Below are positions 5,250 through 24,859 of a DNA stretch of 64,000 nucleotides, piece by piece. This stretch comes from a virus (lineage: Duplodnaviria; Caudoviricetes). Where the stretch lies: positions 31,390 to 95,389 of the IMG/VR virus record IMGVR_UViG_2930248008_000005; one strand, 5' to 3'. The notes below the pieces were generated by a model that was given only the letters and a program-made list of their open reading frames with translations, did no database searches and was not told the DNA's origin. Every line of letters starts with the position of its first letter. The first letter of the stretch is position 1. Made by a program: the position numbers and the translations under genes.

Positions 5250-6936
5250 GCATCGGGACGAAGCTCATCCCGTCGTCAGCGCCGACGCCGGCCGCGACGC
5301 AGTCGCCCCGAGCTTCGTAGGCGAGCACGGCAGCCATGGCACCATCGATCTTTTTCGGACTTTTCGGAAAATCCTTCGAGATGGTGATGCCCGCCCGAGA
5401 GACGCGACGGCGAGCATTAAGAACGTGCGTCTTCAGCGTTGACGCGCGGGCCTTGGCGTCCTCGTCGTCCAGCTCGAACTCGGGGGTGTAGGACAGTGTC
5501 TGCAACTGGACCGCCTCGTAGAAGCGCTCCAGGGCGGCCACGATCGCCCGAGGTCGGTTCGTCCACCATTCCAAGGGTCGACCCTGGGTGGCCTTGACGA
5601 GCATCTGCTCGCCGTACTCCGAGGTCCACTTGTCGCACCACTCCTGCATGTACGGCGGGTCCATGAAGAAGGCCGCGACGCGGAAGCGCTGCATCGTGCT
5701 CGTTACCAGGGCGTCGACAGCGGCGCTGTCCACGCGCCAGTCGTCGCCGAGGTAGTCGGCCGGCCGCTGGAAGACGCCGAGAAGCTCCAGATGCCCGTCG
5801 GAGATCCTGCAGGCAACGAGCGCGACCGCATCGTCCCGGACGGCGCCGTCGAGTCCGAGCGCGACCAGGTCGCCGTCGACGAGGCGCTTGTCCGGACGCT
5901 TGCACGCCGCCCACTCCTCTGCCGCGATCCAGGCGTCGGATGCCGAGGTCTGGGCGTTCAGGAAGTACCGACGGGAGTCCGCGACCTGCTTGCGCGGGTC
6001 GTAGAACTCGTCGATGATCGCTTCGATGTCCTGCCAGGCAATCGCCTCGCCGAACGCTTCCTCGATCGCGACCCGCAGCTGGTCGGCCTTCGTCAGGTCG
6101 CTGACCTCGCCCCAGCGATGGTCATAGAGCAACCTCGATCGCCTGGTGCGGCCCTCCTTGATGGCCTCGGCCAACTCGAAGGTGCTCTCCGCGACGCTGT
6201 TCTCCCCAGGGGCGAACATGGTCGTCGTTTCCAGGTACCAGGTGCCCTCGGCCTTGCGCTTGAGCAGGTTGCGGCTCGTGGTGTCGTACATGCGCCGCAG
6301 CTCAGGGGTCGTATAGAGATGCGTCTCATCGAAGGCCACGAATGTTTCGAGGCCACCGTCCTTCGAGGCGGACGACGCGGTCGACGGCCGAATTTCCCCG
6401 CCCTCCGGCAGGAACACCCGGGTCAGGCCGGCGTCAACGCCAGGGACGTGCGCGAGCGGGCACGACGGGTCGGTCAGGTTGTAGTAGACCGAGTCGTAGA
6501 TATTCCCGCTTTGCCCCTCTTCGGTCGCCATGATCCGGACCATCGGGTACGCCACCGGCTTGCCCATCGGCTCGCCCGGCTCGTAGCGGTAGGTGAAGCC
6601 GAGCCCCCACGGGTCCCGGTAGACTTCGCCGCCCTTCGCCCAGCCAGCGAACCGACACGGACCGAGCGCCTCGAAGAGCGCGAACCGCGCCGCCAAACCG
6701 CTTTTGTCGCAACCCTTCGGCCGCGAGAAGAACACCGAGTCGTACGGTGAGCGGCCGTTCTCATCGAGCGCGTAGACGTCGACGACGAAGCCCATCATCT
6801 CGTCGCCGTGGCGGATCGGCTGGCCGATAACGCCGCCCCTGCCGTGGCGGACGAACCACTCCATCCAGGCATTGGCGAGCCACCCAAGGCTGCGGGTGCG
6901 GGTGGTGCCCGGGGCGCGCACCAGTGTGCGCGGCAT
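5239..6936 (-). CDS. terL: Terminase large subunit
   Basis: SRPKGCDKS Walker A, VAFDETH Walker B, LGLDGA...DD RNase H-like nuclease motif, C-terminal KKIDGAMA. Confidence 0.95.
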   Translation of the reverse strand: MPRTLVRAPGTTRTRSLGWLANAWMEWFVRHGRGGVIGQPIRHGDEMMGFVVDVYALDENGRSPYDSVFFSRPKGCDKSGLAARFALFEALGPCRFAGWAKGGEVYRDPWGLGFTYRYEPGEPMGKPVAYPMVRIMATEEGQSGNIYDSVYYNLTDPSCPLAHVPGVDAGLTRVFLPEGGEIRPSTASSASKDGGLETFVAFDETHLYTTPELRRMYDTTSRNLLKRKAEGTWYLETTTMFAPGENSVAESTFELAEAIKEGRTRRSRLLYDHRWGEVSDLTKADQLRVAIEEAFGEAIAWQDIEAIIDEFYDPRKQVADSRRYFLNAQTSASDAWIAAEEWAACKRPDKRLVDGDLVALGLDGAVRDDAVALVACRISDGHLELLGVFQRPADYLGDDWRVDSAAVDALVTSTMQRFRVAAFFMDPPYMQEWCDKWTSEYGEQMLVKATQGRPLEWWTNRPRAIVAALERFYEAVQLQTLSYTPEFELDDEDAKARASTLKTHVLNARRRVSRAGITISKDFPKSPKKIDGAMAAVLAYEARGDCVAAGVGADDGMSFVPMRVR

Positions 6937-6939
6937 GCG

Positions 6940-7428
6940 TCAGCCCGCCGCGACGCGGGCGCGACGCGAGTCGATACCCACGACGTTCCCGCCGAACTCG
7001 CCAGGAGCCGTCGCCGGCGACGGCTCCTCCTCGACCTCGTCGACCGGGTCTACGTACCGGATCATCAGCTTGCGGCGCGCCTCGCGGGTGGTGCCCATCT
7101 GGTCCTCGCGCCGGCGGATCTCGGTGCTCTTGGTCGAGTGCACGACGCCCGAGTGGTACTCGGCCCACCAGTCGTTCTTCATGTACGCCGTCTCCAGGGC
7201 GAACACCCAGTCCGACGGCTCCCAGAGAACGCAGTGCGGCATGCGACACACCTGCTCCCACCACGCCTCCACCTCGGGCAGCCACTTCGGGCCACCACGC
7301 TTGGGCTTCGGCAAGTCGAGGGACGGACCCTCGTACGGCAGGTTGACGACCTCGGTCCAGTCCCCAGAGGGGGCCCGTCCGTGCTTGTTGGCCTTGGCGG
7401 CCGGGCCGGTCTTGGCCATGATGATCAA
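6940..7428 (-). CDS. terS: Terminase small subunit
   Basis: Immediately upstream of terL; W...WW...P....W..SDW.FA...A and EIRRRE..MGTT...R motifs of actinophage TerS. Confidence 0.8.
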   Translation of the reverse strand: MIIMAKTGPAAKANKHGRAPSGDWTEVVNLPYEGPSLDLPKPKRGGPKWLPEVEAWWEQVCRMPHCVLWEPSDWVFALETAYMKNDWWAEYHSGVVHSTKSTEIRRREDQMGTTREARRKLMIRYVDPVDEVEEEPSPATAPGEFGGNVVGIDSRRARVAAG

Positions 7429-7492
7429 CTCCCATGGCGGGAAGGAGCCGCGGCGCCCATGCCGGGGCCGCGACTCGTGGAAGGTGCAGAAG

Positions 7493-7861
7493 TCAGGGCT
7501 GCAGAAGCGGCGTCTGCGCCGTCAGCGGCACCTCGTCGAGGTGCTCGCCCTCCACCACCAGGTGCAGCAGGTGGGGATCGTTGGTGACGTACATCCGGAC
7601 CGCGCGAGTCCCAGGCGGCAGCCGCAGGGCGTTGGCGAGCTGCGGCATCGAGAGCGTGACCTTCGCCCGTCGAGACGTCTCCGGCGTCAGCGCGCTCGTC
7701 AGCTCTGCGCACGTCGAGCAGTCCCGGTGCGCCTCGACCACCGCCGGGTTCTTCGTCATCGCCCGCAGGGTCGCCCCCGGGTTCGCGCGCATGTCAGCGT
7801 GGACCTCGTCCGGCGCGAACGGGCTGTACCTGCGCATCTCCATGCCGCCGAAGCCGCTCAT
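7493..7861 (-). CDS. Hypothetical protein
   Basis: ATGA overlap with the upstream gene; GGAGG RBS. Confidence 0.6.
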   Translation of the reverse strand: MSGFGGMEMRRYSPFAPDEVHADMRANPGATLRAMTKNPAVVEAHRDCSTCAELTSALTPETSRRAKVTLSMPQLANALRLPPGTRAVRMYVTNDPHLLHLVVEGEHLDEVPLTAQTPLLQP

Positions 7862-8415
7862 GCTGCCTCCTCGGGGGCGTCGAGAACCTCGACCTGGACC
7901 GGGCCCTGGGAGTAGATGTCGCGCCGGCAGGCAATGTCGGCGGCACCCGCCACCGCGGCAGCCGTCGGCACGTCGGTGGCCAGGAAGGCGTCCAGCGCGC
8001 CAAGCGCGACCGCCTCACCGGAGCCGATCGCCGCGCGGCCGTCCAGGTGCGCCAGGGCGGTGTGGTGGTGCAGCGTCCAGAGCAGGCCGTTCCAGCCGAG
8101 CAGCAGATGGTTGTCCATCTGCCCGTCGTCGACGATGCCAGCCTCGACCGCGGCCTTCGTGATGACGCCAGCCAGCTCGTGCGCCCAAGCCTGATAGCTC
8201 TCGCTCTCATCCGGCGCAACCGGCAGCTTCAGCTTCGACAGGAAGCCCGACAAGCCCCAGTGGCCGGACAGTCCGAGCAGGACCTCGTCGTCGCCAGCGT
8301 CCAGGCGCAGGATCTTCATGCCGAGTCCGACGACCGGCCGGTTGTAGAGCGTCAGGCAGCTGTCCGCCGCCATGAAGACCTTGCCGTCGACCGCAGCAGC
8401 GACCACCGTCGTCAC
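7858..8415 (-). CDS. Ntn-hydrolase (HslV/proteasome beta-like) peptidase
   Basis: N-terminal (M)TTVVA..DGKVFMAADS, conserved K, AIGSG and D.YS motifs. Confidence 0.75.
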   Translation of the reverse strand: MTTVVAAAVDGKVFMAADSCLTLYNRPVVGLGMKILRLDAGDDEVLLGLSGHWGLSGFLSKLKLPVAPDESESYQAWAHELAGVITKAAVEAGIVDDGQMDNHLLLGWNGLLWTLHHHTALAHLDGRAAIGSGEAVALGALDAFLATDVPTAAAVAGAADIACRRDIYSQGPVQVEVLDAPEEAA

Positions 8416-8757: not shown

Positions 8758-8991
8758 TCAGCCGCGGTCGCCCTCCCCCTGGTCCTCGTGCACCTGGGAG
8801 GTAGTCAGGAAGTCGGCGGCCACGATCGTGATGGCCAGGCATGAGAGGAACAGCATCAGCTGCTCGAATGGAGCGAACTTGCCCTGGTACGACCAGACCC
8901 ACCAGGCCGACGCCGGCCAGCCGACGATCGACCCGATCAACAGCACCCAGGCGACCCGGGTGCGGATCCTCTTCGTTCGTGGCGACGTCAC
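8758..8991 (-). CDS. Small two-TM membrane protein
   Basis: GTGA overlap with the upstream gene; two hydrophobic segments. Confidence 0.6.
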   Translation of the reverse strand: MTSPRTKRIRTRVAWVLLIGSIVGWPASAWWVWSYQGKFAPFEQLMLFLSCLAITIVAADFLTTSQVHEDQGEGDRG

Positions 8992-9359
8992 GCAGCGACC
9001 AGGGTGGAACGAGAACGCGGCGGGCGGGCTTCCTGCTGGGCCGCCCCAGTGCTCGGCGCCTGCCGCTCCTCGTGCGCGCGGACGCGGGAGGAAGAAGGAG
9101 TCGCTCGGAGCTGGGCTGCGGGCCTCGTGCCGCCTCGCCGCGAGTTCGGGTTGTGCGCGGTATCGCGCTCGGCGTCGAGGATGTCCCCGAGCCTGTAGAG
9201 CAGGTTGCCGTTCGCCAGCCGCTTCGTGGTCAGGAACTGGCGCTCTCCAGCGTCGTTCAGCCAGCCCCGAGCACGCCACTTGCCGATCGAATCGGGGCTC
9301 ACGGCGGTCACCATCGCGGCTTGGGCGCGGGTGACGAAGGCGTCCCGGTTGATCCGCAT
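8988..9359 (-). CDS. HTH DNA-binding protein (MerR/excisionase-like fold)
   Basis: VTRAQAA...VSPDSIGKWRARG...LYRLGDILDAE; GGAGGTG RBS. Confidence 0.7.
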   Translation of the reverse strand: MRINRDAFVTRAQAAMVTAVSPDSIGKWRARGWLNDAGERQFLTTKRLANGNLLYRLGDILDAERDTAHNPNSRRGGTRPAAQLRATPSSSRVRAHEERQAPSTGAAQQEARPPRSRSTLVAA

Positions 9360-9499
9360 CAGTCACCTCCCATGGAAACACTGAAGCCCCAGACCACTGT
9401 TGGCCTGGGGCTTCGTGCGCCGTGTGGGTAGAGATCACCCGTGAGCACACGATGACACGAACCGGGCAGAAACGGCAACTGACACGGAAATTCGATCAC

Positions 9500-9590
9500 C
9501 CAAAGTTTTCGAACCCGGACGCACCGCGAGGCCCAGAACGTACCGGTGCCGCGCGGCCCCGGGGGGGAGGGTACCCCCCCGGGGTATGGC
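9500..9590. other. Putative cos/genome-end packaging region
   Basis: Non-coding GGGGGGGAGGGTACCCCCCCGGGG tract between divergent arms, upstream of HNH/terS. Confidence 0.4.
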
Positions 9591-9917
9591 GGGCAGGGTT
9601 GGGCATCGTCCGGCAGGCAGGTCGGCCGGGTCAATCGTCCGAACGGGGGACAGCGAAATTCATACGTTCGTCAGCGTGTCCGATTCGGGGGGATACGTGG
9701 GTATCTAGATAAACGTCTAAAAGGCCCTCAGAGCCACGCTGAACGACTTTCACGAGGTGGCCGGTATGGAGACATGCACGGAGTCAAGATCAATTCGATA
9801 TCGGTAAATGTCCTCTAGCTATTGACTACCGGTCGGTAATGGTGTTCGATCGCGCGCCGCGCGCCGCGCACAACGCACACAAGACAACACAGTCTCAGGT
9901 CTGAAAAGGCGATCCGA

Positions 9918-10025
9918 TTGTGTCAGGGGTTGTATCAACCGGGCCGCCCCGGGGTGGAGCTGGTTTGTGTCACCCGTTGTGGCAACCAACAGGGAGGGAT
10001 CGGGTTTGTATCAAGGTTTGTGTCA
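9918..10025 (+). promoter_or_regulatory. Five TTGT(G/A)TCA direct repeats
   Basis: Copies at 9918, 9930, 9965, 10006 and 10018. Confidence 0.6.
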
Positions 10026-10030
10026 ACTTT

Positions 10031-10370
10031 GAAAACCTGGGTTGACAGACTGGCGTACCGCATCGTTTACTACTTGCGCCCCGGGCAACCGGGGCCGGTC
10101 GGATCTTTCGATTGGGCAGGCCGAAAACTCAGGTTGACAGCTAGCTCGAACGGGTGAGAGGATCGAATCCCCCGGGAAACCGGGGGCGGTCGGATCTTCC
10201 GATTGGGCAGGCTGAAAACTCAGGTTGACAGCTAGCTCGAACGGGTGAGAGGATCGAATCCCCCGGGAAACCGGGGGCGGTCGGATCTTCCGATTGGGCA
10301 GGCTGAAAACTCAGGTTGACAGCTAGCTCGAACGGGTGAGAGGATCGAATCCCCCGGGGAACCGGGGCGA
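10031..10370 (+). repeat. Three 91-bp tandem promoter units plus one diverged upstream unit
   Basis: TTGACA at 10042, 10134, 10225 and 10316. The three full units read TTGACA-N18-GAGGAT with an extended-10 TG. Confidence 0.9.
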
Positions 10371-10410
10371 CCCCCCTGGGGGAGCCGTTTCGGCGGTGAC
10401 CCTGGATGGT

Positions 10411-10440
10411 GTGTCGTTGTTTGTTGAGAACTCAAGAGCA
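10411..10440 (+). promoter_or_regulatory. rrn-leader-like boxA/CL2 antitermination motif
   Basis: GTGTCGTTGTTTGTTGAGAACTCAAGAGC resembles the actinobacterial rRNA leader motif TGTTGTTTGAGAACTCAA. Confidence 0.6.
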
Positions 10441-11340
10441 GTGGCTGCGTTCCCCGCTTTGCGACGGGGGAACTAGATTGCCAGAGCTGAACGGCCCGGG
10501 GTGCTATTGCCCGGGTGGAGACAGGGCCACCCCGTTAGGGGTGAGGGACCCTGTGGCCTGTTCAGACACCGTGACTAGGCACGTTGTGCTAGGCAACGTC
10601 ACGAACCATTCCCCCGGGGCGGAACCGGGGGAGCGACCGGCCGGTGAGATGGCGGGGTGCGTTAATGGGACCTTAGTAGGTGCATTATGCCGAACGGTAC
10701 TCCCTGTATCCCTATATCCGGCACGGCGCGCGGAAGATAGAACCTGCTACCCGGTTAGACCCGGCGCGCGTAATCGCGTGGGATGGCTATCAACGTATGG
10801 GATAGATGACGGATCAAGAGACACGCACACGTAACGGCGGATACCGAACAATCAGAACGGCGCGGGTAACCGTGCGCGGGATTGTTTCGGGCGTGGAAGC
10901 CATGGCTGCAACGTTACCGGTCGGGGGGAGTGAATGATGGGGGGAATTATACCCCGGTGGAGGCATGCGCAATTGCCATAGACGATTGCGGGATAATGCT
11001 GAAACACAAGTCGCACGGATTAATCCACGTAATAGGATTGTCTCTTCAGTGAACAAATCCGCTTAGCATGCGGGAGCATTCAAAGACAGTACCGGAGTCT
11101 GTCGGACTATCCATCCGACGGGCAAAGGCTGGCACGAGCGTGAACGCATGCGGCGCGGGCGCAAGTCTGTCCGCCACCCGGGCCGTGTCTTCCTGGCACG
11201 GATTCCCCCGGGTGGCGTACGGGATAAATCTGATCCCACCCGGGACCGTTGCCAACCTGGCACGGTCCCGGGTGGCGTTCGGTACGCGATTTGTGGAGAC
11301 GGTGCCGGGTGGTCTGGCTCAATCGGCCATCCGGCACCGT
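10441..11340 (+). ncRNA. Candidate large structured non-coding RNA/leader (~900 nt)
   Basis: No credible ORF, lower GC than flanks, many nested hairpins and long-range complementarity; downstream of the tandem promoters. Confidence 0.55.
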
Positions 11341-11376
11341 GCCTATACCTCACGTAACGAACACAAGGGGTGCATC

Positions 11377-11754
11377 ATGCGCGCTGACATCCTCAAGCCG
11401 GGCCTGGTAATCGACGGCGTCCGGATTCGGTCCCGGGTTCCGTTCGTGCAGAACCGGGCCAAGATGATCCGCGTGGTCATGGAAGACAGGACCACGCGCA
11501 CCTTTCTGGCCTCCGCCGAAGTGACGGTCGGTGGGCCGCGTCAGGAGTGGTTCCCGGCCGGTCCGGTCCGGGAGAAGGATCACCGCAGCCCGCAGCCGAA
11601 CCGGAAGCCTCGCGCGTCCGACGGCCGGTGGGAGGGCGAGTCGGGCGGGTTCCACGTGACCATGGTCAGCCGGATCTCCGCGTACGACCTGACCGGGCGG
11701 CAGCTTGCCCGGTCCGCGCAGGGTCCGTCCGGTCGCCGCTACAGCAGGCGCTGA
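11377..11754 (+). CDS. Hypothetical protein, first gene of the array
   Basis: AAGGGG RBS; stop is part of a type A repeat. Confidence 0.7.
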   Translation: MRADILKPGLVIDGVRIRSRVPFVQNRAKMIRVVMEDRTTRTFLASAEVTVGGPRQEWFPAGPVREKDHRSPQPNRKPRASDGRWEGESGGFHVTMVSRISAYDLTGRQLARSAQGPSGRRYSRR

Positions 11755-11841
11755 CCCTCCGTGCACCCCTGATGGTGTGCCGGCCCGCTCGCGGTCCGGT
11801 CGCCGTCACCTGCTGCACGGCAGGAGAATCGAGGGATCATC

Positions 11842-12234
11842 ATGCGCGGAATCGGTCAGCACATGCTTCCGGCGGCGACTCAGCCGGAGCCGGCCGACAA
11901 CACGAGCATGTACGTCTACGCCCAGGTGGAGGAGTGGCAGCGGAGCTGCCTGCCCGTACACCCGGAGATCGCCCGCGAGATCGCGGCGTGGTGGCACGCC
12001 CCCGCGCCGCACTACGCCGGCCTGACGGCGTTCGCCAGCACCGGGACCCTACTCCAGCGCGAGTGGGAGCCGGAGGACGAGCCGACCCGGGTCGAGCGCG
12101 AGCGGCCCGTGATCCTGGACGAGATCGACCGGGAGATCGGGACGGAGGACATGTACCGGCCGGAGATCACGCCGCTGTGGGCGCTGCGCCACTACGTGCA
12201 GAACGCCTGCCGCGCCGCCGGGTGGGCGTACTGA
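11842..12234 (+). CDS. Hypothetical cassette protein
   Basis: Bounded by type A repeats. Confidence 0.75.
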   Translation: MRGIGQHMLPAATQPEPADNTSMYVYAQVEEWQRSCLPVHPEIAREIAAWWHAPAPHYAGLTAFASTGTLLQREWEPEDEPTRVERERPVILDEIDREIGTEDMYRPEITPLWALRHYVQNACRAAGWAY

Positions 12235-12341
12235 CCGTGTGCTGACGGTGGGGCACCGTGCCCCGGTCGCGAACGATGCGGCCGGCCGGACCGGTGCCAC
12301 CGCCACCTGCCGCACGGGCAGGAGACTGGCGAGGTGAAAAC

Positions 12342-12710
12342 ATGGGCGCTCGGACCATCACCGAGGAGACCATCGGCGGCCTGTTCAACGAGGGCAAGCT
12401 GACCCCCCTGGAGTTCGGCCTGCGGTGGGTGGAGGTGCGCCAGTACGGCGACTGCCACCCGTCGGAACTGACCCCCTGCAAGCACGACGACGAGACCAAC
12501 ACGGTCACCGTGTCGGTCTACCACGTCTACGGGGAGCAGCGGCTCGGCCAGCCCTGGTCGGAGTACACCTGCCCGAACGTCTGGGCTACGGGTGGCGACG
12601 TCGAGGGCATCGGCGGCGAGTACGTGAACGGTGGCACGTTCAGCTACCTGGGCGACGACCGGGAGCTGTGCGACCGGATCTACCGGCGGGCGGCCGAGGT
12701 CGCGGACTGA
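12342..12710 (+). CDS. Hypothetical cassette protein
   Basis: Bounded by type A repeats; GAGGTG RBS. Confidence 0.75.
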   Translation: MGARTITEETIGGLFNEGKLTPLEFGLRWVEVRQYGDCHPSELTPCKHDDETNTVTVSVYHVYGEQRLGQPWSEYTCPNVWATGGDVEGIGGEYVNGGTFSYLGDDRELCDRIYRRAAEVAD

Positions 12711-12789
12711 CCGTGCGAGTGATGGTGGGAGCCGGGCGCGCCCCGGCTCTCCGCCACCGTCGCATGGCGGAGAAAGCGAGGGACGAGTC

Positions 12790-13158
12790 ATGTCCGTCAC
12801 GATCAACCTGTCCGACATCCTCTGCGTCACCTGCGGGCAGTCGCCAGAGGAGGGCGCGCCGCGCAAGATTGGCGAGTGGGACGATGCCGGGCACACCGAC
12901 AGCGCCCACCACCCGGCCTGGTCCCAGCGGTCGTTCCCGGGCAGCATCTGGGCCGCGCACCCGCAGCAGGCGCTGTGGTACGGGGAGGTCGTCGTGGCCA
13001 AGCCGGGCGAGGACACCGACTACTTCTACGGCTACGCGGACTGCGAGTACGAGCCGTCCGTGGACGAGCTGGTGCCAGCCGGGTGGGAGGTCCTGGAGTC
13101 CAAGGTCAAGCCCACCCCGAATAACCCGGCCTGGGAGCCGGAGCCGGAGCAGGACTGA
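12790..13158 (+). CDS. Hypothetical cassette protein
   Basis: Bounded by type A repeats. Confidence 0.75.
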   Translation: MSVTINLSDILCVTCGQSPEEGAPRKIGEWDDAGHTDSAHHPAWSQRSFPGSIWAAHPQQALWYGEVVVAKPGEDTDYFYGYADCEYEPSVDELVPAGWEVLESKVKPTPNNPAWEPEPEQD

Positions 13159-13237
13159 CCGTGCATCGATGGTGGGGCACCGACTGCGCGTCGGTGCCGC
13201 CGCCACCCGTGCATGGCGGGAGGAAGTGAGGGCAATC

Positions 13238-13420
13238 ATGCCCGACGGCAACCTGTACGACGCGCTGAAGGCCATCGAGCGGTGCGACCCGGACGGCGGG
13301 GAGCGTCAGCCCACCGAGGCGGACTATGTCGCACACGAGCGGTGGGCCGTCCAGACGTTCGGGCAGAGCGTCTGGGACACGTACCGGCGGGGCGGCTGGG
13401 GCGAACCCAGCTACGCCTGA
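13238..13420 (+). CDS. Small hypothetical cassette protein
   Basis: Bounded by type A repeats. Confidence 0.7.
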   Translation: MPDGNLYDALKAIERCDPDGGERQPTEADYVAHERWAVQTFGQSVWDTYRRGGWGEPSYA

Positions 13421-13498
13421 CCGTGCGGGTGATGGTGCGGCATCGGGTGTGCCCGGTGCCGTGCCACCGTCGCATGGCGGAGAGACGAGGTGGAGACC

Positions 13499-14068
13499 AT
13501 GGGTGGCAAGCTGCACGAGAACCCGCACGTCGAGCGGGTGCTGGTCGCGCTGGACACGGCGCGCCGGGAGGCGAACCTGGCGGGTCATCCGTACGACATC
13601 GGGTTCACTGGTGTGGACGAGCCGTACGGGATGATCGAGCGGGCGCTGAAGCGCACGCTGACCCACGCCTTCCCGGACGTGGACGCGGACGCGGTCTACC
13701 ACGCGCTGATCGACTCCGGCGAGGACATCGGGTACTGCGTGGACGCGCTGCGCCGGGAGAAGGCGGACCGGGCCAAGCTGCTCGACCCCTACCGGGAGTA
13801 CGAGCGGCCGGCGGAGTCCGGGCGCTACGGCGCGCGGATGTGGGAGCTGCCGAACGGGTGGGGCGTGTCCCTGGTGCCGTACGCCCGTCACGACGAGGAA
13901 GCGGAGCGGCACGCCATCGCGCGGGAGGACTTCGGGATGGCGATCGGGGCGTTCGTAGGCGGCGGGTTCGTGATCGACAACGAGCGGTCGGCGACCATCG
14001 CGCGGGTGGGCGGCCTGGACTTCGTCGAGACCATCCTGTCCGACACGATGGAGCTGCCGCCGCGCTGA
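13499..14068 (+). CDS. Hypothetical cassette protein
   Basis: Bounded by type A repeats. Confidence 0.75.
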   Translation: MGGKLHENPHVERVLVALDTARREANLAGHPYDIGFTGVDEPYGMIERALKRTLTHAFPDVDADAVYHALIDSGEDIGYCVDALRREKADRAKLLDPYREYERPAESGRYGARMWELPNGWGVSLVPYARHDEEAERHAIAREDFGMAIGAFVGGGFVIDNERSATIARVGGLDFVETILSDTMELPPR

Positions 14069-14147
14069 CCGCGTGTGGATGGTGCTGGCCGGGCGAGAGT
14101 CCGGCCGGTGCCACCTGCCGCGCGGGCAGGAGATTGGCGAGGTTGAC

Positions 14148-14573
14148 ATGACCACGACGACGGCCGTCAGGCACTGGCACGTGGCAACGGGCCTGGTGGG
14201 CTACGGCCCGGACGGGGCGGACGGGTACGGCACGGCGATCGAGCTGACCGACGTGGCGGACCTGATCCGCGACGAGCTGCGGCAGGCTGCCGACTCCGAG
14301 GACGAGGGGTCCCGGAGCGAGGCCGAAGCCGCGGACTTCTCGGAGGCGTGGAAGCTCAAGACGCGCGCCGAGCACCTGTCGATCCTGGCGGAGACGTTCA
14401 GCAACGACCGGGCCAACGCGCCGCTGTACGCCGGAAAGCCGGAGATGTGGGCGGACACGATCGAGACACTGATCCGGCAGCACTTCCCGCTGGACATCAG
14501 CGACCGCTCCCGGTTGTACGTGTGGCCGTGTGCGGAGCCGGGCTGCGAGCACCTGGCCGACCTGGAGCGGTGA
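14148..14573 (+). CDS. Hypothetical cassette protein
   Basis: Bounded by type A repeats. Confidence 0.75.
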   Translation: MTTTTAVRHWHVATGLVGYGPDGADGYGTAIELTDVADLIRDELRQAADSEDEGSRSEAEAADFSEAWKLKTRAEHLSILAETFSNDRANAPLYAGKPEMWADTIETLIRQHFPLDISDRSRLYVWPCAEPGCEHLADLER

Positions 14574-14663
14574 CCTTCGGCGTGCGCTGACGGTGCCGGC
14601 CGGACCGACGCGGTCCGGCCGGTCGCCGCCCGCTACACGGCGGGAGATTGACGAGGTCACCCG

Positions 14664-15044
14664 GTGAACATCGCCGAGACGAGGGAAGAGATCCGCGCGC
14701 AGGTCGCGGAGCACCTGACCATGTGGGCGGGCAAGTGCATGTCGATCGAGGTCGGGGGGCTGTCCCTCGAACTCGCGCCGAGGGTTGGCGGACACATCGA
14801 GATCAGCCGCTTCGTGGTGCCGCGCGCCATGCGCGGCGAGGGGGTCGGCACGGCCGTCATGTGGTCCGTGGCGGCCTGGGCGGACCGGATGGGGTACACC
14901 CTGACCCTGACGCCGTCGAAGGGCTTCGGCGCGACCTCCGTGGCGCGCCTGGAGAAGTTCTACGGGCGGCACGGGTTCATCAGGAACCGGGGCCGGTACG
15001 CGGATCTCACGATCAGTGAGGCCATGCGCCGCGTGCCGCGCTGA
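14664..15044 (+). CDS. GNAT-family acetyltransferase
   Basis: VVPRAMRGEGVGT acetyl-CoA motif and LEKFYGRHGF. Confidence 0.85.
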   Translation: MNIAETREEIRAQVAEHLTMWAGKCMSIEVGGLSLELAPRVGGHIEISRFVVPRAMRGEGVGTAVMWSVAAWADRMGYTLTLTPSKGFGATSVARLEKFYGRHGFIRNRGRYADLTISEAMRRVPR

Positions 15045-15123
15045 CCGTGCGCACCTGGTGCGGGCCGGGCGGAAGTCCGGCCCGTGCCACCTGCCGCGCG
15101 GCAGGAGATTGGCGAAGATCATC

Positions 15124-15489
15124 ATGTGTGAGCAGGACATCGTCGACGCCTTCAACAAGGTCGCGGACAATTACCCAGGCGGGGAGCTGTACCGGCGGCT
15201 GACCGAGGCGTCGCGCAGGGCCGTGCTGGAGGGCATGGCCACCGGCTTGACGCTGGACGACTACCGGAAGGCGAAGGAGGGGCGCGGCGACCTCCGGGAG
15301 TACGCCGACGTGGTTGGCATCTACGTCCGGGACGAGCTGCGCGAGTACATCGACGAGGTGCTGCCAGCCAACGCGCTGCGGGACATCCTGTTGAAGCTGC
15401 TCGACCTGGATGACCGGAGCGTGTCGCTGGCGCTCGGGCAGCACTACCTGCCGGACCCCGACGACATCGACGCCGGGGCGCTGGTCTGA
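15124..15489 (+). CDS. Hypothetical cassette protein
   Basis: Bounded by type A repeats. Confidence 0.7.
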   Translation: MCEQDIVDAFNKVADNYPGGELYRRLTEASRRAVLEGMATGLTLDDYRKAKEGRGDLREYADVVGIYVRDELREYIDEVLPANALRDILLKLLDLDDRSVSLALGQHYLPDPDDIDAGALV

Positions 15490-15570
15490 CCGTGCGCACC
15501 TGGCGCGGGCCGGGCTATCGTCCGGCCCGTCGCCACCTGCCGCGCGGGCAGGGATTGACGAGGGAGGGCC

Positions 15571-15702
15571 ATGTTTCCAGGAGCGTATGCCTCGGTGGAA
15601 CGCAACGAGGCTGGGGAGCCGATCGGGTGGGACTACCCGTCCTACGACGAGCCATACGACCCGGACGACTACCTACCGCAGGACGACGAGGACGAGGACT
15701 GA
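15571..15702 (+). CDS. 43-aa acidic microprotein
   Basis: MFPGAYASVERNEAGEPIGWDYPSYDEPYDPDDYLPQDDEDED; exactly fills the gap between two repeats; GGAGG RBS. Confidence 0.7.
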   Translation: MFPGAYASVERNEAGEPIGWDYPSYDEPYDPDDYLPQDDEDED

Positions 15703-15779
15703 CCGTGCGCCGATGATCCTGGCCGGGCTGCTGTCCGGCCGGGGTCACCGCTGCATGGCGGAGAGAGTGAGGAACGGAC

Positions 15780-16346
15780 ATGCACATCACGTCGCGTGAC
15801 TTGACGAACCTGATCGAGGACGTGAGCCGTGGGAAGCTGACGCCGGCCGAGGGGCATCGGGGGTCGAGCTGGGCGTACCGCGAGGTGATCGACCTGGCGA
15901 ACTCGGTCCTGACGGGCGCGCCGATCGGTGCGGTCGTCATCGACTACGAGCGACGGCACCTGATCGACGGGCGCGAGCGACTGATGACGCTCGCCGCCAT
16001 GTTCCTGCCGGCCGACGAGCGCCCGGCAATGCCCGTGGACGGCAGCGCGCCGCACCTGGTGGTGCGCGGGCTCGCCGAGGGTGACGGGTTCGAGGTGCTC
16101 ATGGTGCGGGAGGAAGACCGGGAGCCGGCCGACCTGCCGCTATCCTGCCTGCTGCGCACGAGGCGGTTCCTCGCGTGGGAGCGGGCCGTAGACGGCGCGC
16201 ACCCCGAGCAGGCGACAGGCATCAAGCGGCGCGGCGGGCGGCTCGCGCAGCGCCTGCACACGGCCAAGGTGGCCGTGATCGAGCTGGACGCCGAGGTGAG
16301 CCCGGACCGGGTCGCGCGGTTGGTGAACCGGCACCGGATCGGCTGA
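15780..16346 (+). CDS. DUF262 (GmrS/ParB-like) domain protein, divergent
   Basis: HR..SW...IDLANSVLTGAPIG...LIDGRERLMTL resembles the DUF262 QR..W / PIG / DGQQRL motifs. Confidence 0.65.
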   Translation: MHITSRDLTNLIEDVSRGKLTPAEGHRGSSWAYREVIDLANSVLTGAPIGAVVIDYERRHLIDGRERLMTLAAMFLPADERPAMPVDGSAPHLVVRGLAEGDGFEVLMVREEDREPADLPLSCLLRTRRFLAWERAVDGAHPEQATGIKRRGGRLAQRLHTAKVAVIELDAEVSPDRVARLVNRHRIG

Positions 16347-16423
16347 CCGTGCGCTGATGGTGCTCGCCCGGCTTCGGCCGGGCGGGTGCCACCGCCGCAC
16401 GGCGGAGGAAGTGAGGCGCTGAG

Positions 16424-16780
16424 ATGGCGCGGATTACCGACGAGATGGTCAGCGAGATGAACGACCGGATCGCGCAGGCCCCGACGACCGCGCAGGCGTT
16501 CCGGCTTGCGATGGGCGTCAGCGACAGGATGCTGTGGCTGCTGCTCGACCTGAACCACATCAACCAGGACGAGGTCGGGTTGGGCAGGGGTGGGCGCGAG
16601 GCACTCGCGGTGGAGGCGCACGGCTGGCACCTGTACTACCGGGACGACGACACGCCGGCTGACGGGTACGGTCCGTGCGAGCTGGGCGGGTTCGAGGCGC
16701 ACAGCCTGCGGCCGTGGGAGTGCCGGGGATGCAAGCGGCGCCCCATTGACCACCGGCGGGTGCCGGTGGCCGTGCGCTGA
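16424..16780 (+). CDS. Hypothetical cassette protein
   Basis: Bounded by repeats; stops at the internal TGA of the repeat. Confidence 0.7.
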   Translation: MARITDEMVSEMNDRIAQAPTTAQAFRLAMGVSDRMLWLLLDLNHINQDEVGLGRGGREALAVEAHGWHLYYRDDDTPADGYGPCELGGFEAHSLRPWECRGCKRRPIDHRRVPVAVR

Positions 16781-16846
16781 TGATCCTGGCCGGGCGCGAG
16801 TCCGGCCGGGGTCACCGCTGCATGGCGGAGGAAGTGAGGGCTGACC

Positions 16847-17137
16847 ATGCGGTACGTGATGGTGACCGCCACCGCTCTGGCAGCGATGCTGCCGGAGCAA
16901 TACGAGCAGTGCAAGAACGACGATCGGTGGACCCTGGTCACCTCGACCGAGGAGACGTGCGCCACGGTCGGGCGCCGCGAGAAGGTGACGCACGTGGTCA
17001 CCTGGGGTCCGCCGGACGGCAGGACCAGAGAGGGGTGCTGCGACGAGTGCGCCGGGTCCTACTCCCGACGGCCAGCGCTGGCCGCGCAGGTGCTCTGCAT
17101 CTGGGCGGGCTGGGGCTGCACGCACGCGCAGCTCTAA
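16847..17137 (+). CDS. Cys-rich hypothetical cassette protein
   Basis: Bounded by repeats. Confidence 0.7.
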   Translation: MRYVMVTATALAAMLPEQYEQCKNDDRWTLVTSTEETCATVGRREKVTHVVTWGPPDGRTREGCCDECAGSYSRRPALAAQVLCIWAGWGCTHAQL

Positions 17138-17216
17138 CCGTGTGCTGATAGTGGCGGCCGGGCCGAGGGTCCGGCCGCTGCCACCACCGCACGGGTGGAG
17201 AGAGGCAGGGCGGATC

Positions 17217-17813
17217 ATGCCGCGCACCATCACGACCACGCGCACCGTGTTCAAGTTCGAGGAGTTGAGCGAGGACGCGCAGCAGCGGGCGGTTGAGCGG
17301 ATCGCCGAGAAGATGGCGACGACCTGGTGGGACCAGCACGACAACGACGACATCGGCGCGACCATCGTCTACAAGATGGCCGAGAAGCTGCGCACGCGGG
17401 GCTGGGACACCTTCGGGGAGGGAGACTTCCCCGGAATCCCCGGGGTCGAGCTGGTCGAGTGGGACCTGGGGCGCGGGCAGGCGGTCAGCTTCAAGGGAGC
17501 GCTGGACCGTGAGAACGCCCCCGCGCTGCCCTGGGCCGATGGAGTCGAGGCCGTAACCCTCGGCGGCATCCCGGGCTACGGCATCGGCCAGTCCGTCTAC
17601 GTCGAGACAGACGGCGAGGCCGAGACCGACGAGGAGGTGGCGCGGGTCGGCGCGGCGGCGGAGGCGATGAAGAGCGCCGTCGAGGATGCCATCCACGCCG
17701 CCTGGCAGGCAGGCAAGGAGCAGGAGGAGTGGAAGGGCGGCGAGGAGCGCGCCCGCGACTGGATCGAGGCGAACGAGCCCGAGTTCGACGAGTCAGGCAA
17801 CCTCGACCACTGA
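17217..17813 (+). CDS. Conserved phage hypothetical protein
   Basis: TVFKFEELSEDAQQRA ... IEANEPEFDESG, a common phage early-protein pattern. Confidence 0.75.
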   Translation: MPRTITTTRTVFKFEELSEDAQQRAVERIAEKMATTWWDQHDNDDIGATIVYKMAEKLRTRGWDTFGEGDFPGIPGVELVEWDLGRGQAVSFKGALDRENAPALPWADGVEAVTLGGIPGYGIGQSVYVETDGEAETDEEVARVGAAAEAMKSAVEDAIHAAWQAGKEQEEWKGGEERARDWIEANEPEFDESGNLDH

Positions 17814-17893
17814 CCGTGCGCTGACGGTGGCCGCCGGGCCGATGGTCCGGCGGCTGCCACCTCCGCACGGGAGGGGAAAGCAGGGGTAGGCAC

Positions 17894-18223
17894 ATGATCA
17901 TCAACCTGGAGTCGCCGCAACGGCAGGCGTCGACCTACACGCCGGGCACCGTTCAGGACGCGGCAGAGCGCGAGCTGCGCATCATGCTGGAGGAGTTGCG
18001 CGACGAGGGCAAGGTCGAGCAGTACGGCCGGGAGCTGCGCCGGGCGGTGGTCTTCACGAGGGCCGGCAATGGTCCGACCTGCCTGGTGGTGTTCCTCATG
18101 GACTCCGACGGCGACCCGATGTCGGCGTTCGTGGACTACAGCGAGCGGCACGACGCCGCCATGCCGGTCCCGGAGCCGTACGTCCAGGAGCTGTACGACG
18201 CACTGCGCGCCTACGGGCGCTGA
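17894..18223 (+). CDS. Hypothetical cassette protein
   Basis: Bounded by repeats. Confidence 0.7.
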   Translation: MIINLESPQRQASTYTPGTVQDAAERELRIMLEELRDEGKVEQYGRELRRAVVFTRAGNGPTCLVVFLMDSDGDPMSAFVDYSERHDAAMPVPEPYVQELYDALRAYGR

Positions 18224-18303
18224 CCGCGCGCTGATGGTGGTGCACCGACCCCGGGTCGGTGCGCTGCCACCACCGCACGGGTGGAGAGAGGCAGGGCCGA
18301 CCA

Positions 18304-18549
18304 ATGGCCGACAGCGTGGAGAATTGCACGGAATGGGTCCGCAAGTGGGTGCTCAACGACCCCTCGGAGATCCTGTTCGAGGCGCAGCGACACGCCCGGC
18401 GCAGCCCGGAGGACCTGGAGGAGTTCATCGTCGGGGTGCTGCGCGCACCGAAGGAGGGTACGGCGGCGTGGTACACGCGCCGCGAGCTGTCCGACGTGGA
18501 GCTGGAGACCAGGATCGACTGGTCCGCGTTGGCCGACGACATCCTGTGA
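18304..18549 (+). CDS. Hypothetical cassette protein
   Basis: Bounded by repeats; W..ND / IDW..LA motif. Confidence 0.7.
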   Translation: MADSVENCTEWVRKWVLNDPSEILFEAQRHARRSPEDLEEFIVGVLRAPKEGTAAWYTRRELSDVELETRIDWSALADDIL

Positions 18550-18630
18550 CCACGCACTGATGGTGGCGCACCGCCCCCCGAGGTCGGTGCGCTGCCACCA
18601 CCGCGTGGTGGAGGGAGTGAGGGCAACATT

Positions 18631-19344
18631 ATGGGCCGCACCTTCGTCGAAATCGGCGAGGCGACTTACCGCGGACGGCACCCACTGCCGCACCAGTCGC
18701 GGCAGATCCGCCGCGACCTGCACGGGGAGGACATCCTCATGAACCCGGGCGCGGAGGCGCGCGGGTACCGACTCACGGCCGAGCAGATCGAGGACCGGCG
18801 ACAGGGCCGGACGCCTCGGGCCGAAGCGCCGTACGAGTTCCTGATCTACTTCCCGGGTCGGCCGTCGCTCAACTGGACGGCGTTCTACAGCCGGGCCGAG
18901 CTGGACGCCTGGCTGGACGCCTACGCGCTGACCCTGGACGGCGACCCGGAGCCCGGCGGGTATTTCGAGGTCCGCCTGCCGGCGACGGACGCCGACTGGC
19001 AGCCGGCGACCCTGGCGACGGCGTTCGAGACACTGGACGACCTGCGCCGGATGGGCGCGGCCATCCAGTGGAAGGGGACGCGGCACCTGGTCGGGCAGTG
19101 GAGCGCCACGCACGACGATGGCAAGCTGACCAGCGCCAGCGTCTGGAGCAAGACCGAGCGGCGGTGGTTGACGCTGGTCGAGCCGCGCGGCCTGCCGATC
19201 CCGGAGCATCAGCGGTGCGCGGCGACGCACCCGGACTTCCCAGAGATGCGCTGTGAGCGCCACGTACACCCCGACACCCCGAACTACCCGAACCACGTGA
19301 CCGAGCACCAGAACGGGCTCAACAAGTGGGAGTCCTGGCACTGA
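18631..19344 (+). CDS. Hypothetical cassette protein
   Basis: Bounded by repeats. Confidence 0.75.
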   Translation: MGRTFVEIGEATYRGRHPLPHQSRQIRRDLHGEDILMNPGAEARGYRLTAEQIEDRRQGRTPRAEAPYEFLIYFPGRPSLNWTAFYSRAELDAWLDAYALTLDGDPEPGGYFEVRLPATDADWQPATLATAFETLDDLRRMGAAIQWKGTRHLVGQWSATHDDGKLTSASVWSKTERRWLTLVEPRGLPIPEHQRCAATHPDFPEMRCERHVHPDTPNYPNHVTEHQNGLNKWESWH

Positions 19345-19423
19345 CCGTGTGCCGATGGTGGCGGCCGGGCTTGCGCCCGGCCGCGCGCCACCTGCCACAC
19401 GGGCAGGAGAAAGCGAGGCAGCG

Positions 19424-19681
19424 ATGGACAGCAAGACGATCCAGGAGGCATACACCGGGCGGGAGGAGGCCACCATGGACCGCGTGGTGCGCTTCCTGCG
19501 GGACAACTACGGCCACTCGGACGGCTCCCCGCTCACCGAGGAGCGCCTGCTGGAGCTGACGATCAAGCACGCCGACGTCATCCGGACCGCGATCACCCTG
19601 GGCTCGTTCGCCTACTACCCGGGCGACAAGATCGCCGCCGCAGAGAGGCTGGAGTACATCGGTCCCGACGACGAAGGCTGA
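19424..19681 (+). CDS. Hypothetical cassette protein
   Basis: Bounded by repeats. Confidence 0.7.
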   Translation: MDSKTIQEAYTGREEATMDRVVRFLRDNYGHSDGSPLTEERLLELTIKHADVIRTAITLGSFAYYPGDKIAAAERLEYIGPDDEG

Positions 19682-19757
19682 CCGCGCATGGACGGTGGCC
19701 GCCGGGTTCGCCCGGCGGCTCGCCGCCCGTCGCACGGACGGGAGAGATGAGGGCGAC

Positions 19758-20177: not shown

Positions 20178-20258
20178 TCGTGCGGCTAATGGTGGTCGCC
20201 GGGCCGAGGTCCGGCGGCACGCCACCTGTCGCACGGACAGGAGGAAGGGAGGATCGAC

Positions 20259-20558: not shown

Positions 20559-20640
20559 TCGTGCACTGACGGTGCTGGCCGGACCGCGAGGTCCGGCCGG
20601 TGCCGCCCGCTGCACGGCGGGAGGATGCGAGGTCGGGACG

Positions 20641-20832: not shown

Positions 20833-20908
20833 CGTACGCCGACGGTGCCACGCGGGCCGCAGGGTCCGCGCGGTGCCGCCCGCGCACGGCGGGAGAATGA
20901 GGGCACTC

Positions 20909-21388: not shown

Positions 21389-21467
21389 CCGCGCGCTGAT
21401 GGTGGTGCCCGGCCGCGTGCCGGGCACTCGCCACCTCCGCGTGGGAGGAGAGAGACGAGGTAGCACC

Positions 21468-24856: not shown

Positions 24857-24859
24857 GCG

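What the first reader, a model, noticed from the sequence alone, without database searches (positions are those of the whole stretch)
10441..11340. Candidate ~900-nt large structured ncRNA heading the array
Seen: no convincing ORF, GC lower than the flanks, and dense pairing: 10449-10473; CTGAAC 10487 / GTTCAG 10560 enclosing 10528-10543; CGTGAC 10570 / GTCACG 10598; AACAATC 10847 / GATTGTT 10880; 11101-11119; 11173-11216; 11236-11275; 11299-11340. Long-range pairs: AAGAGACA 10816 / TGTCTCTT 11039 and GCATTAT 10682 / ATAATGC 10993. It lies just downstream of tandem promoters and the boxA-like motif. Known: phages encode large ncRNAs (GOLLD, ROOL) and RNA antiterminators (HK022 put). Inference: a new large RNA that may act with the downstream repeats. 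Two of its 3' hairpins contain the GCACGG arm seen in type A.
Basis: partly seen in the sequence, partly recalled or inferred. Interest (0 to 1): 0.8.

Follow-up and report, generated by a model that had tools for sequence, protein, structure and literature searches.

The report
Long folded leader behind boxA
This gene-free stretch is most likely the long, hairpin-rich untranslated start of a prophage's big rightward operon, placed behind four promoters and a copy of the host's ribosomal-RNA anti-termination signal, rather than a proven new large RNA gene.

Summary
Window 10441-11340 is non-coding and lies in a ~2 kb gene-free gap (9390-11376) between a leftward structural operon and a rightward operon of a Micromonospora-type provirus. 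Local hairpins far exceed chance, mainly in the 3' half. The two cited long-range pairs and the GCACGG link to type A repeats are at chance level.

The stretch follows four promoter-like sites, spaced 91-92 bp apart. It also follows a 37-nt motif that is 32/37 identical to the Micromonospora maritima rrn leader (CL2/boxA).

I found only two syntenic relatives, prophages in M. maritima and in genome G265. Both show the same order: boxA-like motif, ORF-free leader, the same first gene, then type A repeats. Their leaders are 478 and about 570 nt against 937 nt here, with no BLAST similarity. A gap-tolerant alignment and two terminal hairpins that fall in register point to distant homology.

Rfam gives nothing and no RNA data exist.

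Best reading (0.55): a boxA-guarded, structured 5' leader acting in cis. A free-standing large RNA (0.15) or an RNA-primed origin (0.10) is not excluded.

This scan earlier noted the same layout (tandem promoters, boxA, ~0.9 kb folded RNA) in phiEco32-like coliphages, which are other DNA.

The parts
10031..10367 (+). Four promoter-like sites: TTGACA at 10042, 10134, 10225 and 10316, each followed about 18 nt later by GAGGAT. The last three lie in a 91-nt tandem repeat (10079-10367).
   Evidence: Tandem Repeats Finder reports period 91, 3.2 copies, 97% matches. Family D2 has 4 copies. The M. maritima prophage has four equivalent TTGACA sites at 73-84% identity. The E. coli-type consensus scan did not call them. 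Transcription is inferred, not shown.
10352..10367 (+). Short GC hairpin at the predicted 5' end of the transcript from the last promoter. Copies follow each upstream promoter.
   Evidence: Local fold of -12.5 kcal/mol. Repeat families D3 and I8.
10402..10438 (+). rrn-leader (CL2/boxA)-like motif.
   Evidence: It is 32 of 37 identical to the M. maritima rrn leader about 125 nt upstream of 16S. Variants sit at the same place in the other two prophages. It is predicted to be almost unpaired, -3.7 kcal/mol.
10441..11362 (+). ORF-free, hairpin-rich leader body; this is the finding itself.
   Evidence: Frame plot, folds, local complementarity, no Rfam match.
10487..10565 (+). 79-nt branched hairpin, the most stable element of the 5' half.
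   Evidence: -47.7 kcal/mol. The aligned stretch in M. maritima is about 70% identical, but its pairing is not kept (my reading).
11166..11223 (+). Terminal hairpin 1.
   Evidence: -40.9 kcal/mol. It aligns with the M. maritima hairpin at L070 7698-7747.
11236..11275 (+). Terminal hairpin 2, a window-specific duplicate whose arms are paralogous to those of hairpins 1 and 3.
   Evidence: -36.9 kcal/mol with 14-nt perfect arms (I9). It falls in a gap of the W-M alignment. Alternative pairings I2 and I3 are listed.
11277..11362 (+). Terminal hairpin 3, an 86-nt hairpin ending 2 nt before the ribosome-binding site.
   Evidence: -50.1 kcal/mol. It is in register with the last hairpin of the other two leaders.
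11365..11754 (+). Ribosome-binding site (AAGGGG) and the first gene of the rightward operon (ATG at 11377, 125 aa, P0003).
   Evidence: Translation. GC3 of 0.85-0.92. Relatives are at 74%, 56% and 43% identity. No Pfam or PHROGs family matches.

Best explanation
The interval is the untranslated 5' leader of the prophage's long rightward operon. Host RNA polymerase starts at four tandem sigma-70-type promoters. Within about 50-90 nt of the last start it transcribes a copy of the host rrn-leader boxA (CL2) motif, which recruits the host NusB/NusE-based antitermination complex.

So modified, the polymerase can cross about 0.9 kb of untranslated, hairpin-rich RNA, including three very stable hairpins just before the first gene. 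It can then cross the hairpin-bearing repeats between the downstream genes.

The leader acts in cis. Its terminal hairpins serve as pause/termination barriers, processing sites or stabilisers that set how much transcription and translation reaches gene 1 and beyond.

Shown: the region is non-coding; local folding exceeds chance; there is a boxA-like match to the rrn leader; the layout is conserved in 3 of 3 related loci.

Inferred: promoter activity, Nus recruitment, and what the hairpins do.
For: - Non-coding.
- Promoter-like units: four in the window, conserved at 73-84% in the M. maritima prophage.
- boxA-like motif: 32/37 identical to the M. maritima rrn leader, which lies next to an Rfam-confirmed 16S. 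Variants sit at the same position in all 3 of 3 loci. CL2 is described as the putative BoxA of actinobacterial rrn leaders (PMC10218544, passages).
- Same order in 3 of 3 loci: boxA-like motif, ORF-free leader, P0003-family gene, type A repeats.
- Plus-strand fold z is -4.7, -5.8 and -4.7 in the three leaders, and weaker on the minus strand in 2 of 3 (-4.6, -3.4, -2.65).
- Each leader ends in very stable hairpins (-34 to -50 kcal/mol) within about 150 nt of the start codon. In a MAFFT alignment of the last ~220 nt, two hairpins fall in register: 88% of cells are paired, and 17 pairs are changed on both sides against 7.5 +/- 2.0 in shuffles.
- Variable length and sequence fit a cis-acting leader better than a trans-acting RNA with a fixed core.
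- Precedent: T7 has a boxA behind its tandem early promoters (PMC3709561, passage).
Against: - No transcription data. No RNA run holds the stretch.
- The E. coli-type promoter scan called 0 promoters, because the -10 element is GAGGAT.
- In this window the two strands fold equally far above chance (-4.67 against -4.63), so a DNA-level role for the palindromes is not excluded.
- The hairpins lack U-tracts, so they are not classical terminators. Terminator-like sites number 2, against 1.9 expected.
- The register test rests on 3 sequences and on a structure derived from the same alignment.
- Why a leader should need 0.5-0.9 kb is unexplained.
- Nus binding is untested.
Confidence: 0.55

Rival explanations
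1. A free-standing large structured RNA. The operon head mimics an rrn operon, with tandem promoters and boxA, and the folded 0.5-0.9 kb RNA is the product. It would be cut out at the terminal hairpins and act in trans, for example as a decoy, scaffold or anti-defence RNA.
For: The layout resembles an rrn operon. Fold excess is present on the plus strand in 3 of 3 leaders. The leader has lower GC and G>C composition. W and M leader cores align above chance: 63.7 against 7.2 +/- 11.1, with a maximum of 40.5 in 100 shuffles. The terminal hairpins are kept in register. Earlier unchecked notes of this scan describe the same layout with a conserved ~0.9 kb RNA in phiEco32-like coliphages.
Against: Length differs twofold and there is no BLAST-level similarity among the three leaders, although adjacent non-coding DNA is 73-77% identical. 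The 5' half is no more folded than coding controls. No closing leader-trailer helix appears among the 25 longest inverted repeats or in the MFE fold. No Rfam match. There is no evidence for defined ends.
Confidence: 0.15
2. An RNA-primed replication origin. The strongly transcribed, ORF-free region would supply a primer RNA, as proposed for the ~600-bp non-coding origins of non-RepA cluster A mycobacteriophages.
For: The region is an ORF-free segment of 0.5-0.9 kb behind strong promoters, and its sequence is poorly conserved. The mycobacteriophage origins likewise share only 41-71% identity (PMC7157519, sections 10, 11 and 15 read). No replication initiator was recognised among 30 larger ORFs scanned: 20 against Pfam and 10 against PHROGs, with some overlap. 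The cumulative GC skew has its minimum near 8-9 kb.
Against: The element is an integrated provirus. No ParA (PF13614) or ParB (PF02195) is present in the record, whereas those origins sit beside parABS. The skew minimum also coincides with the switch in gene direction. Only part of the ORFs were scanned, and the record may be cut at its end. boxA and a ribosome-binding site directly downstream fit an mRNA leader.
Confidence: 0.1
3. A DNA-level control region. The palindromes, especially the three paralogous arms at 11166-11362, would be protein-binding sites such as operators, or sites for packaging or recombination.
For: In this window the two strands fold equally far above chance. The arms of the three terminal hairpins are repeated copies of one motif (D12, D16, I2, I3). 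The region lies between divergent operons next to HNH and terminase genes.
Against: Arms of 14-36 nt with 12-24 nt between them are unlike usual operators. In 2 of 3 relatives the transcribed strand folds better than its complement. The arm sequences are not conserved between phages while pairing is kept, which points to RNA or cruciform structure rather than sequence-specific binding. The more conserved non-coding DNA lies upstream, at 9300-9907.
Confidence: 0.08
4. A fast-evolving spacer with no function of its own. It would be left over from gene loss or mosaic joining, with GC-rich hairpins arising easily.
For: There is no sequence conservation by BLAST. Length varies twofold. The 5' half folds like the coding controls.
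Against: An ORF-free leader of 480 nt or more is kept at the same place in 3 of 3 loci. Fold z is -4.7 to -5.8. The terminal hairpins are kept in register with changes on both sides. No remnants of coding sequence were found.
Confidence: 0.1

Closest known systems
Actinobacterial rrn operon leader (tandem promoters, CL2/boxA, Nus-factor antitermination complex)
   Same: Several promoters in tandem. A motif 32/37 identical to the M. maritima rrn leader element sits shortly after the last start. A long untranslated, structured RNA follows.
   Different: No rRNA follows. No leader-trailer helix is predicted. The transcript runs into a protein-coding operon. Nus binding is not tested.
Phage T7 early region (tandem host promoters, boxA, hairpin processing sites between early genes)
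   Same: Tandem host-type promoters, then a boxA antitermination element (PMC3709561, passage), then genes separated by hairpins. The RNase III sites of T7 are recalled knowledge, not from a call.
   Different: The host phylum is different. The leader is about ten times longer than I recall for T7. The repeats here form their own family. Processing is not shown.
Lambda nut / HK022 put antitermination RNAs
   Same: cis-acting RNA signals placed just downstream of early promoters. A boxA is followed about 10 nt later by a hairpin at 10449-10473, as in a nut site.
   Different: No N-like protein was identified. put consists of two short stem-loops, not 0.9 kb (recalled). No model of put or nut was available to test. 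The boxA here is of the host rrn type.
Large phage-associated RNAs GOLLD and ROOL
   Same: Size class, and location in a phage or prophage.
   Different: No Rfam family reached its gathering score in the window. Within 9300-11900 only 7 chance-level matches appeared, at E 2-6.9, none of them to these families. The core is not conserved among relatives.
RNA-based origins of non-RepA cluster A mycobacteriophages (PMC7157519)
   Same: An ORF-free, transcribed, poorly conserved region of about 0.6 kb in an actinobacteriophage.
   Different: Those lie beside parABS in extrachromosomal prophages and are transcribed away from parA. Here there is no ParA or ParB, the prophage is integrated, and the RNA runs into an operon.
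boxA-guarded ~0.9 kb folded RNA of phiEco32-like coliphages
   Same: Tandem host promoters, an rrn-type boxA, and then about 0.9 kb of folded non-coding RNA.
   Different: The phage lineage and host are unrelated. There each promoter is said to have its own boxA and the RNA is said to be conserved. Here there is one boxA after the last promoter and the leader varies. I did not see those sequences, and the paper named there (PMC3275717) is not held.

Membership tests
Rfam large non-coding RNA families (GOLLD, ROOL and all other 4227 models) | A covariance-model match at or above the family's gathering score | tested here: not met
   There were 0 matches in the whole window at gathering. Within 9300-11900 at E up to 10 there were 7 matches of 13.5-20.3 bits, against cut-offs of 35-100.
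rrn-type boxA antitermination leader | A boxA motif like that of the host's rrn leader | tested here: met
   It is 32/37 identical to the M. maritima rrn leader, which lies about 125 nt upstream of an Rfam-confirmed 16S. The window's own host genome is not held, so the comparison is with a related host.
rrn-type boxA antitermination leader | The motif lies in the transcript, downstream of a promoter, and is single-stranded | tested here: inconclusive
   It lies 81-86 nt after the last TTGACA (10316) and is predicted almost unpaired, -3.7 kcal/mol. The promoters are inferred from sequence and from conservation. The consensus scan called none.
rrn-type boxA antitermination leader | NusB/NusE binding and resistance to termination | not testable with these tools
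   This needs binding assays and reporter or run-off transcription.
Lambda-type nut site | boxA plus a boxB hairpin read by a phage N protein | tested here: inconclusive
   boxA is followed by a hairpin at 10449-10473. No N-like protein is recognisable. Gene 1 has no family and only a weak beta-barrel resemblance to EF-P domain I.
HK022 put RNA | Two conserved stem-loops that act on RNA polymerase without protein factors | not tested
Only recalled knowledge applies.
Type A intergenic repeat of this phage | A match to the covariance model built from 20 copies (P1 CCGTGCG/CGCACGG, P2 GGTG/CACC, variable hairpin) | tested here: not met
   True copies score 54-65 bits, including 12707-12795, which was not in the training set. 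The best leader hits are 8.5, 8.4 and 4.4 bits at E 0.15 or more.
RNA-based origin of non-RepA parABS mycobacteriophages | An ORF-free transcribed region adjacent to parABS | tested here: not met
   The region is ORF-free, but there is no PF13614 or PF02195 match in the 95-kb record.
RNA-based origin of non-RepA parABS mycobacteriophages | [quoted passage not shown] | not testable with these tools
   This needs a plasmid replication assay.

The most novel reading that the evidence does not exclude
Micromonosporaceae prophages carry an rRNA-operon mimic whose real product is a fast-evolving structured RNA of 0.5-0.9 kb. It would be made under host Nus-factor antitermination and chaperoning and released at the terminal hairpins. 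It would be a functional counterpart of the boxA-guarded ~0.9 kb RNAs noted earlier in phiEco32-like coliphages. That would make 'boxA plus giant folded RNA' a recurrent phage device across phyla, for example as a primer for replication or a decoy for host RNA-binding or defence proteins.
Probability: 0.15. Interest if true: 0.8.

Novelty: new variant of a known kind. Interest (0 to 1): 0.45.

Why it matters
Phage early leaders that carry boxA are textbook for lambda and known for T7. My three searches on boxA in phages turned up no paper describing an rrn-type boxA at the head of an actinobacterial prophage operon. These searches cover open-access papers only, so this is not proof of absence.

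If the reading holds, three things follow:
- These prophages borrow the host's rRNA antitermination machinery to drive a ~45 kb operon through hundreds of hairpins.
- The 0.5-0.9 kb leader is the place where that decision is set.
- It gives a testable handle on Nus-factor antitermination outside rRNA in Actinobacteria, in a culture-collection strain (M. maritima JCM 17013).

The same layout in unrelated coliphages (earlier scan notes) hints at convergence. That keeps open the bolder idea that the RNA itself is the product.

Tried and rejected
Homologue searches that gave nothing:
- blastn of 9400-11900 against 50,697 phage records, and of 9300-12300 against 72,556 plasmids.
- tblastn of P0003 against phages.
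- The search for related loci with P0002, P0003 and alignment A3 in viral contigs, and with A1 in genome contigs and metagenome contigs.
- The promoter-repeat pattern in viral contigs gave 0 hits. In metagenome contigs it gave 1 hit, a low-GC chance match.
- The type A pattern in viral contigs gave 2 single matches, taken as chance.
- The type A pattern in genome contigs gave 57 stretches. Of these, 56 had one match, taken as chance and not examined. One (L057) had three matches and led to the M. maritima prophage.

Genome searches around M. maritima:
- Window DNA in a family sample: 2 of 401 genomes.
- P0001 in the genus: 5 of 275. G585 shares only the left side and its contig ends. G534, G527 and G481 showed no related control region.
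- P0002 in the genus: 1 of 275.
- Alignment A3 in the family: 2 of 401.
- Alignment A3 in the genus: 2 of 275. The second hit, G498, lies inside other genes and I dropped it as false.

Sequencing runs: no RNA holder is listed. Run X1 holds the stretch and is probably the source. Run X2 holds only one 154-nt identical contig at depth 2.2. Neither is evidence on expression.

Other ideas rejected:
- The leader is built from A/B repeats or is complementary to them.
- It is a tRNA or tmRNA.
- It holds a decayed gene or a conserved small peptide.
- A Rho-loading (C>G) analysis was uninformative: 0 of 73, 0 of 38 and 1 of 43 leader windows, against 37 of 1687 in the operon.
- The global MAFFT alignment of the two leaders misplaced boxA, so I did not use it.

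Limits and weak results:
- The small blocks of the gap-tolerant alignment are not reliable one by one. Its null was a mononucleotide shuffle.
- The P0003 model is confident only for residues 1-50. Foldseek gave no match at E <= 0.001.
- Supplementary files of the papers were not opened.

Full report
WHERE IT LIES.
The window is the right 64 kb of a 95,389-bp provirus record. Gene calling by third-position G+C puts terminase, portal, capsid and tail genes on the minus strand up to window 8436, followed by an HNH gene and a MerR-like gene at 8988-9359. From ATG 11377 onward a long plus-strand operon runs, with repeat elements between nearly all genes. Between the two operons, from about 9390 to 11376, no codon position stands out. 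The finding (10441-11340) is the right half of this gap.

THE OBSERVATION.

Non-coding status is solid. The frame plot is flat. All 6 of the 6 largest ORFs lack Pfam and PHROGs matches. tblastx between related leaders detects only the downstream gene.

G+C is 0.61 against about 0.70 in the flanks.

Local pairing is far above chance. There are 22 complementary 8-mers within 100 nt, against 1.9 +/- 2.0 in 200 dinucleotide shuffles. The MFE z-score is -6.0 with 20 shuffles or -4.7 with 30 shuffles.

The excess is uneven. The 5' half (10440-10907) has z -2.0 and the 3' half z -5.4, while 10 coding segments of the same length gave a mean of -1.7, sd 2.3, range +2.0 to -6.7. In this window the minus strand is as far above chance as the plus strand (-4.6).

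The two long-range pairs are ordinary: 7.5 long-range 8-mer pairs and 29.5 long-range 7-mer pairs are expected by chance. GCACGG occurs 115 times in the window against 110.5 +/- 10.2 expected.

WHAT PRECEDES IT.
Four TTGACA hexamers at 10042, 10134, 10225 and 10316 are each followed about 18 nt later by GAGGAT and then by a short GC hairpin. The last three sit in a 91-nt tandem repeat. The E. coli-type scan calls none of them, so promoter function is inferred from the perfect -35 element, the spacing and conservation.

Window 10402-10438 matches four contig-end places in the M. maritima genome at 86%. One of these lies about 125 nt upstream of a 16S rRNA gene found by Rfam. The alignment is 32 of 37 identical. 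Genome G265 has nearly the same rrn leader. In mycobacteria this conserved leader element (CL2) is described as the putative BoxA antitermination element (PMC10218544, passages).

RELATIVES.
Public phage, plasmid, IMG/VR and JGI collections gave nothing.

A pattern from the type A repeat found one genome stretch with three matches, in M. maritima JCM 17013. That prophage (L070) has:
- a P0001 homologue;
- a gene-free gap at 6300-7864;
- four TTGACA units;
- a diverged boxA-like motif;
- a 478-nt leader;
- a P0003-family gene at 43% identity;
- type A repeats and a P0002 homologue.

A profile of the P0003 family found a third locus in G265. It shares two islands of the upstream non-coding DNA and has a boxA-like motif, a leader of about 570 nt, the gene, and type A-like repeats seen as reverse complements.

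Searches of 275 Micromonospora genomes and a sample of 401 genomes of the family found no further complete locus.

ARE THE LEADERS CONSERVED?
By blastn the window and L070 share:
- 77% identity over 9300-9907;
- 73% over the promoters through boxA (to 10450);
- nothing from 10450 to 11600;
- 74% again from 11759.

G265 shares no leader similarity. Leader lengths are 937, 478 and about 570 nt.

A global alignment with cheap long gaps of the W and M leader cores, with boxA and the ribosome-binding site excluded, scores 63.7 against 7.2 +/- 11.1 (maximum 40.5) in 100 mononucleotide shuffles. The best local blocks are colinear. I therefore take the two leaders as distantly homologous, with about 460 extra nt in the window. 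The extra material includes terminal hairpin 2, which is a local duplicate.

All three leaders fold more stably than shuffles on the transcribed strand (z -4.7, -5.8, -4.7), and less so on the other strand in two of three (-4.6, -3.4, -2.65).

All three end in very stable hairpins shortly before the start codon. In a MAFFT alignment of the last ~220 nt, RNAalifold finds two long hairpins in register. Counting gives 88% of cells paired, and 17 of 47 pairs changed on both sides against 7.5 +/- 2.0 in shuffles, with 0 of 500 shuffles reaching that value. Versions slid by 1-3 columns give 31-46% paired. This rests on three sequences and on a structure derived from the same alignment, so it is suggestive only. 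I saw no kept pairing in the 5' domain.

LINK TO THE REPEATS.
A covariance model from 20 type A copies scores true copies at 54-65 bits, including one copy left out of training. In the leader it reaches only 8.5, 8.4 and 4.4 bits. blastn-short of the leader against the rest of the window finds nothing beyond 13-mers on either strand. The leader is neither made of these units nor complementary to them. What links them is co-occurrence: 3 of 3 loci have both.

WHAT IT IS NOT.
No Rfam family matches and there is no tRNA or tmRNA.

MECHANISM.
The simplest account is a cis-acting leader. Tandem promoters give strong early transcription. The rrn-type boxA loads the host Nus complex. That complex lets polymerase cross a long untranslated, hairpin-dense RNA and then a ~45-kb operon full of intergenic hairpins.

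The terminal hairpins have paralogous arms, which permit alternative pairings (I2, I3). That makes them candidates for a barrier, switch or processing site ahead of gene 1.

T7 offers a precedent, with a boxA behind its tandem early promoters (PMC3709561, passage). The T7 RNase III sites between early genes are recalled, not from a call.

Gene 1 co-varies with the leader. Its confident N-terminal 50 residues form a small beta-barrel with weak resemblance to EF-P domain I. A role on RNA or polymerase is speculation.

RIVALS.
- A free-standing RNA product is not excluded. Earlier unchecked notes of this scan describe the same layout, with a conserved ~0.9-kb RNA, in phiEco32-like coliphages.
- An RNA-primed origin like the ~600-bp non-coding origins of cluster A mycobacteriophages (PMC7157519, sections 7, 10, 11 and 15) fits the ORF-free, transcribed, poorly conserved character. 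It does not fit the context: there is no ParA or ParB, the prophage is integrated, and a ribosome-binding site follows directly.
- DNA-level roles and plain spacer are listed with their evidence under the rival explanations.

VERDICT.
The reading as a new large RNA acting with the repeats is only partly supported. The interest lies in the conserved design of boxA plus a long folded leader in actinobacterial prophages, and in its parallel in unrelated coliphages.

Noticed in passing
window 9300-9907: The non-coding DNA upstream of the promoters is better conserved than the leader. It is 77% identical to the M. maritima prophage. Two islands (9520-9580 at 85%, and 9756-9799) are also kept in G265. 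It includes the lowest-GC part of the gap and lies next to the HNH and terminase genes, so it could be a packaging site or the control region of the leftward operon.
   Followed up: partly
window 9918-10028: Six copies of a TTGTRTCA-type motif sit in three pairs just upstream of the first promoter (D4, D7). They are absent from the equivalent place in the M. maritima prophage. They look like operators or iterons specific to this phage.
   Followed up: no
window 11757-28027; L070 8270-8650; L085 1-9000 (minus strand): Type A intergenic repeats fold as an outer helix CCGTGCG/CGCACGG, an inner helix GGTG/CACC and a variable hairpin, followed by the ribosome-binding site. The same family is present in all three related prophages. 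Model R1 finds copies it was not trained on.
   Followed up: partly
window 11377-11754: Gene 1 (P0003) has no Pfam or PHROGs family. Its first 50 residues model confidently (pLDDT about 90) as a small beta-barrel with weak similarity to EF-P/eIF5A domain I, and the rest is predicted disordered and basic. It diverges together with the leader.
   Followed up: partly
window 10303-10456: A second, differently labelled sequencing run (X2) holds one 154-nt contig identical to the last promoter unit plus boxA, at depth 2.2. This may be carry-over between samples or a relative sharing only this piece.
   Followed up: no
window 34662-36023, 41161-42243, 45119-47736, 50168-52639, 58701-60515: The rightward operon holds a DUF932 protein, a topoisomerase-like protein (phrog_6247), a GntR regulator divergent from a DUF2637 protein, a large protein with a weak FtsK/SpoIIIE match, ThyX and a dCTP deaminase. 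No replication initiator was recognised among the ORFs scanned.
   Followed up: partly
L077 (G585:C22:90000-94092): A third Micromonospora genome has a 74%-identical P0001 homologue and the first ~240 nt of the gap (window 9307-9550 at 80%). It then continues differently and the contig ends. So the left and right arms of these prophages recombine at this gap.
   Followed up: partly
window 10925-10980: A 15-codon ORF (ATG at 10933) is preceded by a G-rich Shine-Dalgarno-like run in the lowest-GC part of the leader. No counterpart was seen in the other leaders.
   Followed up: no
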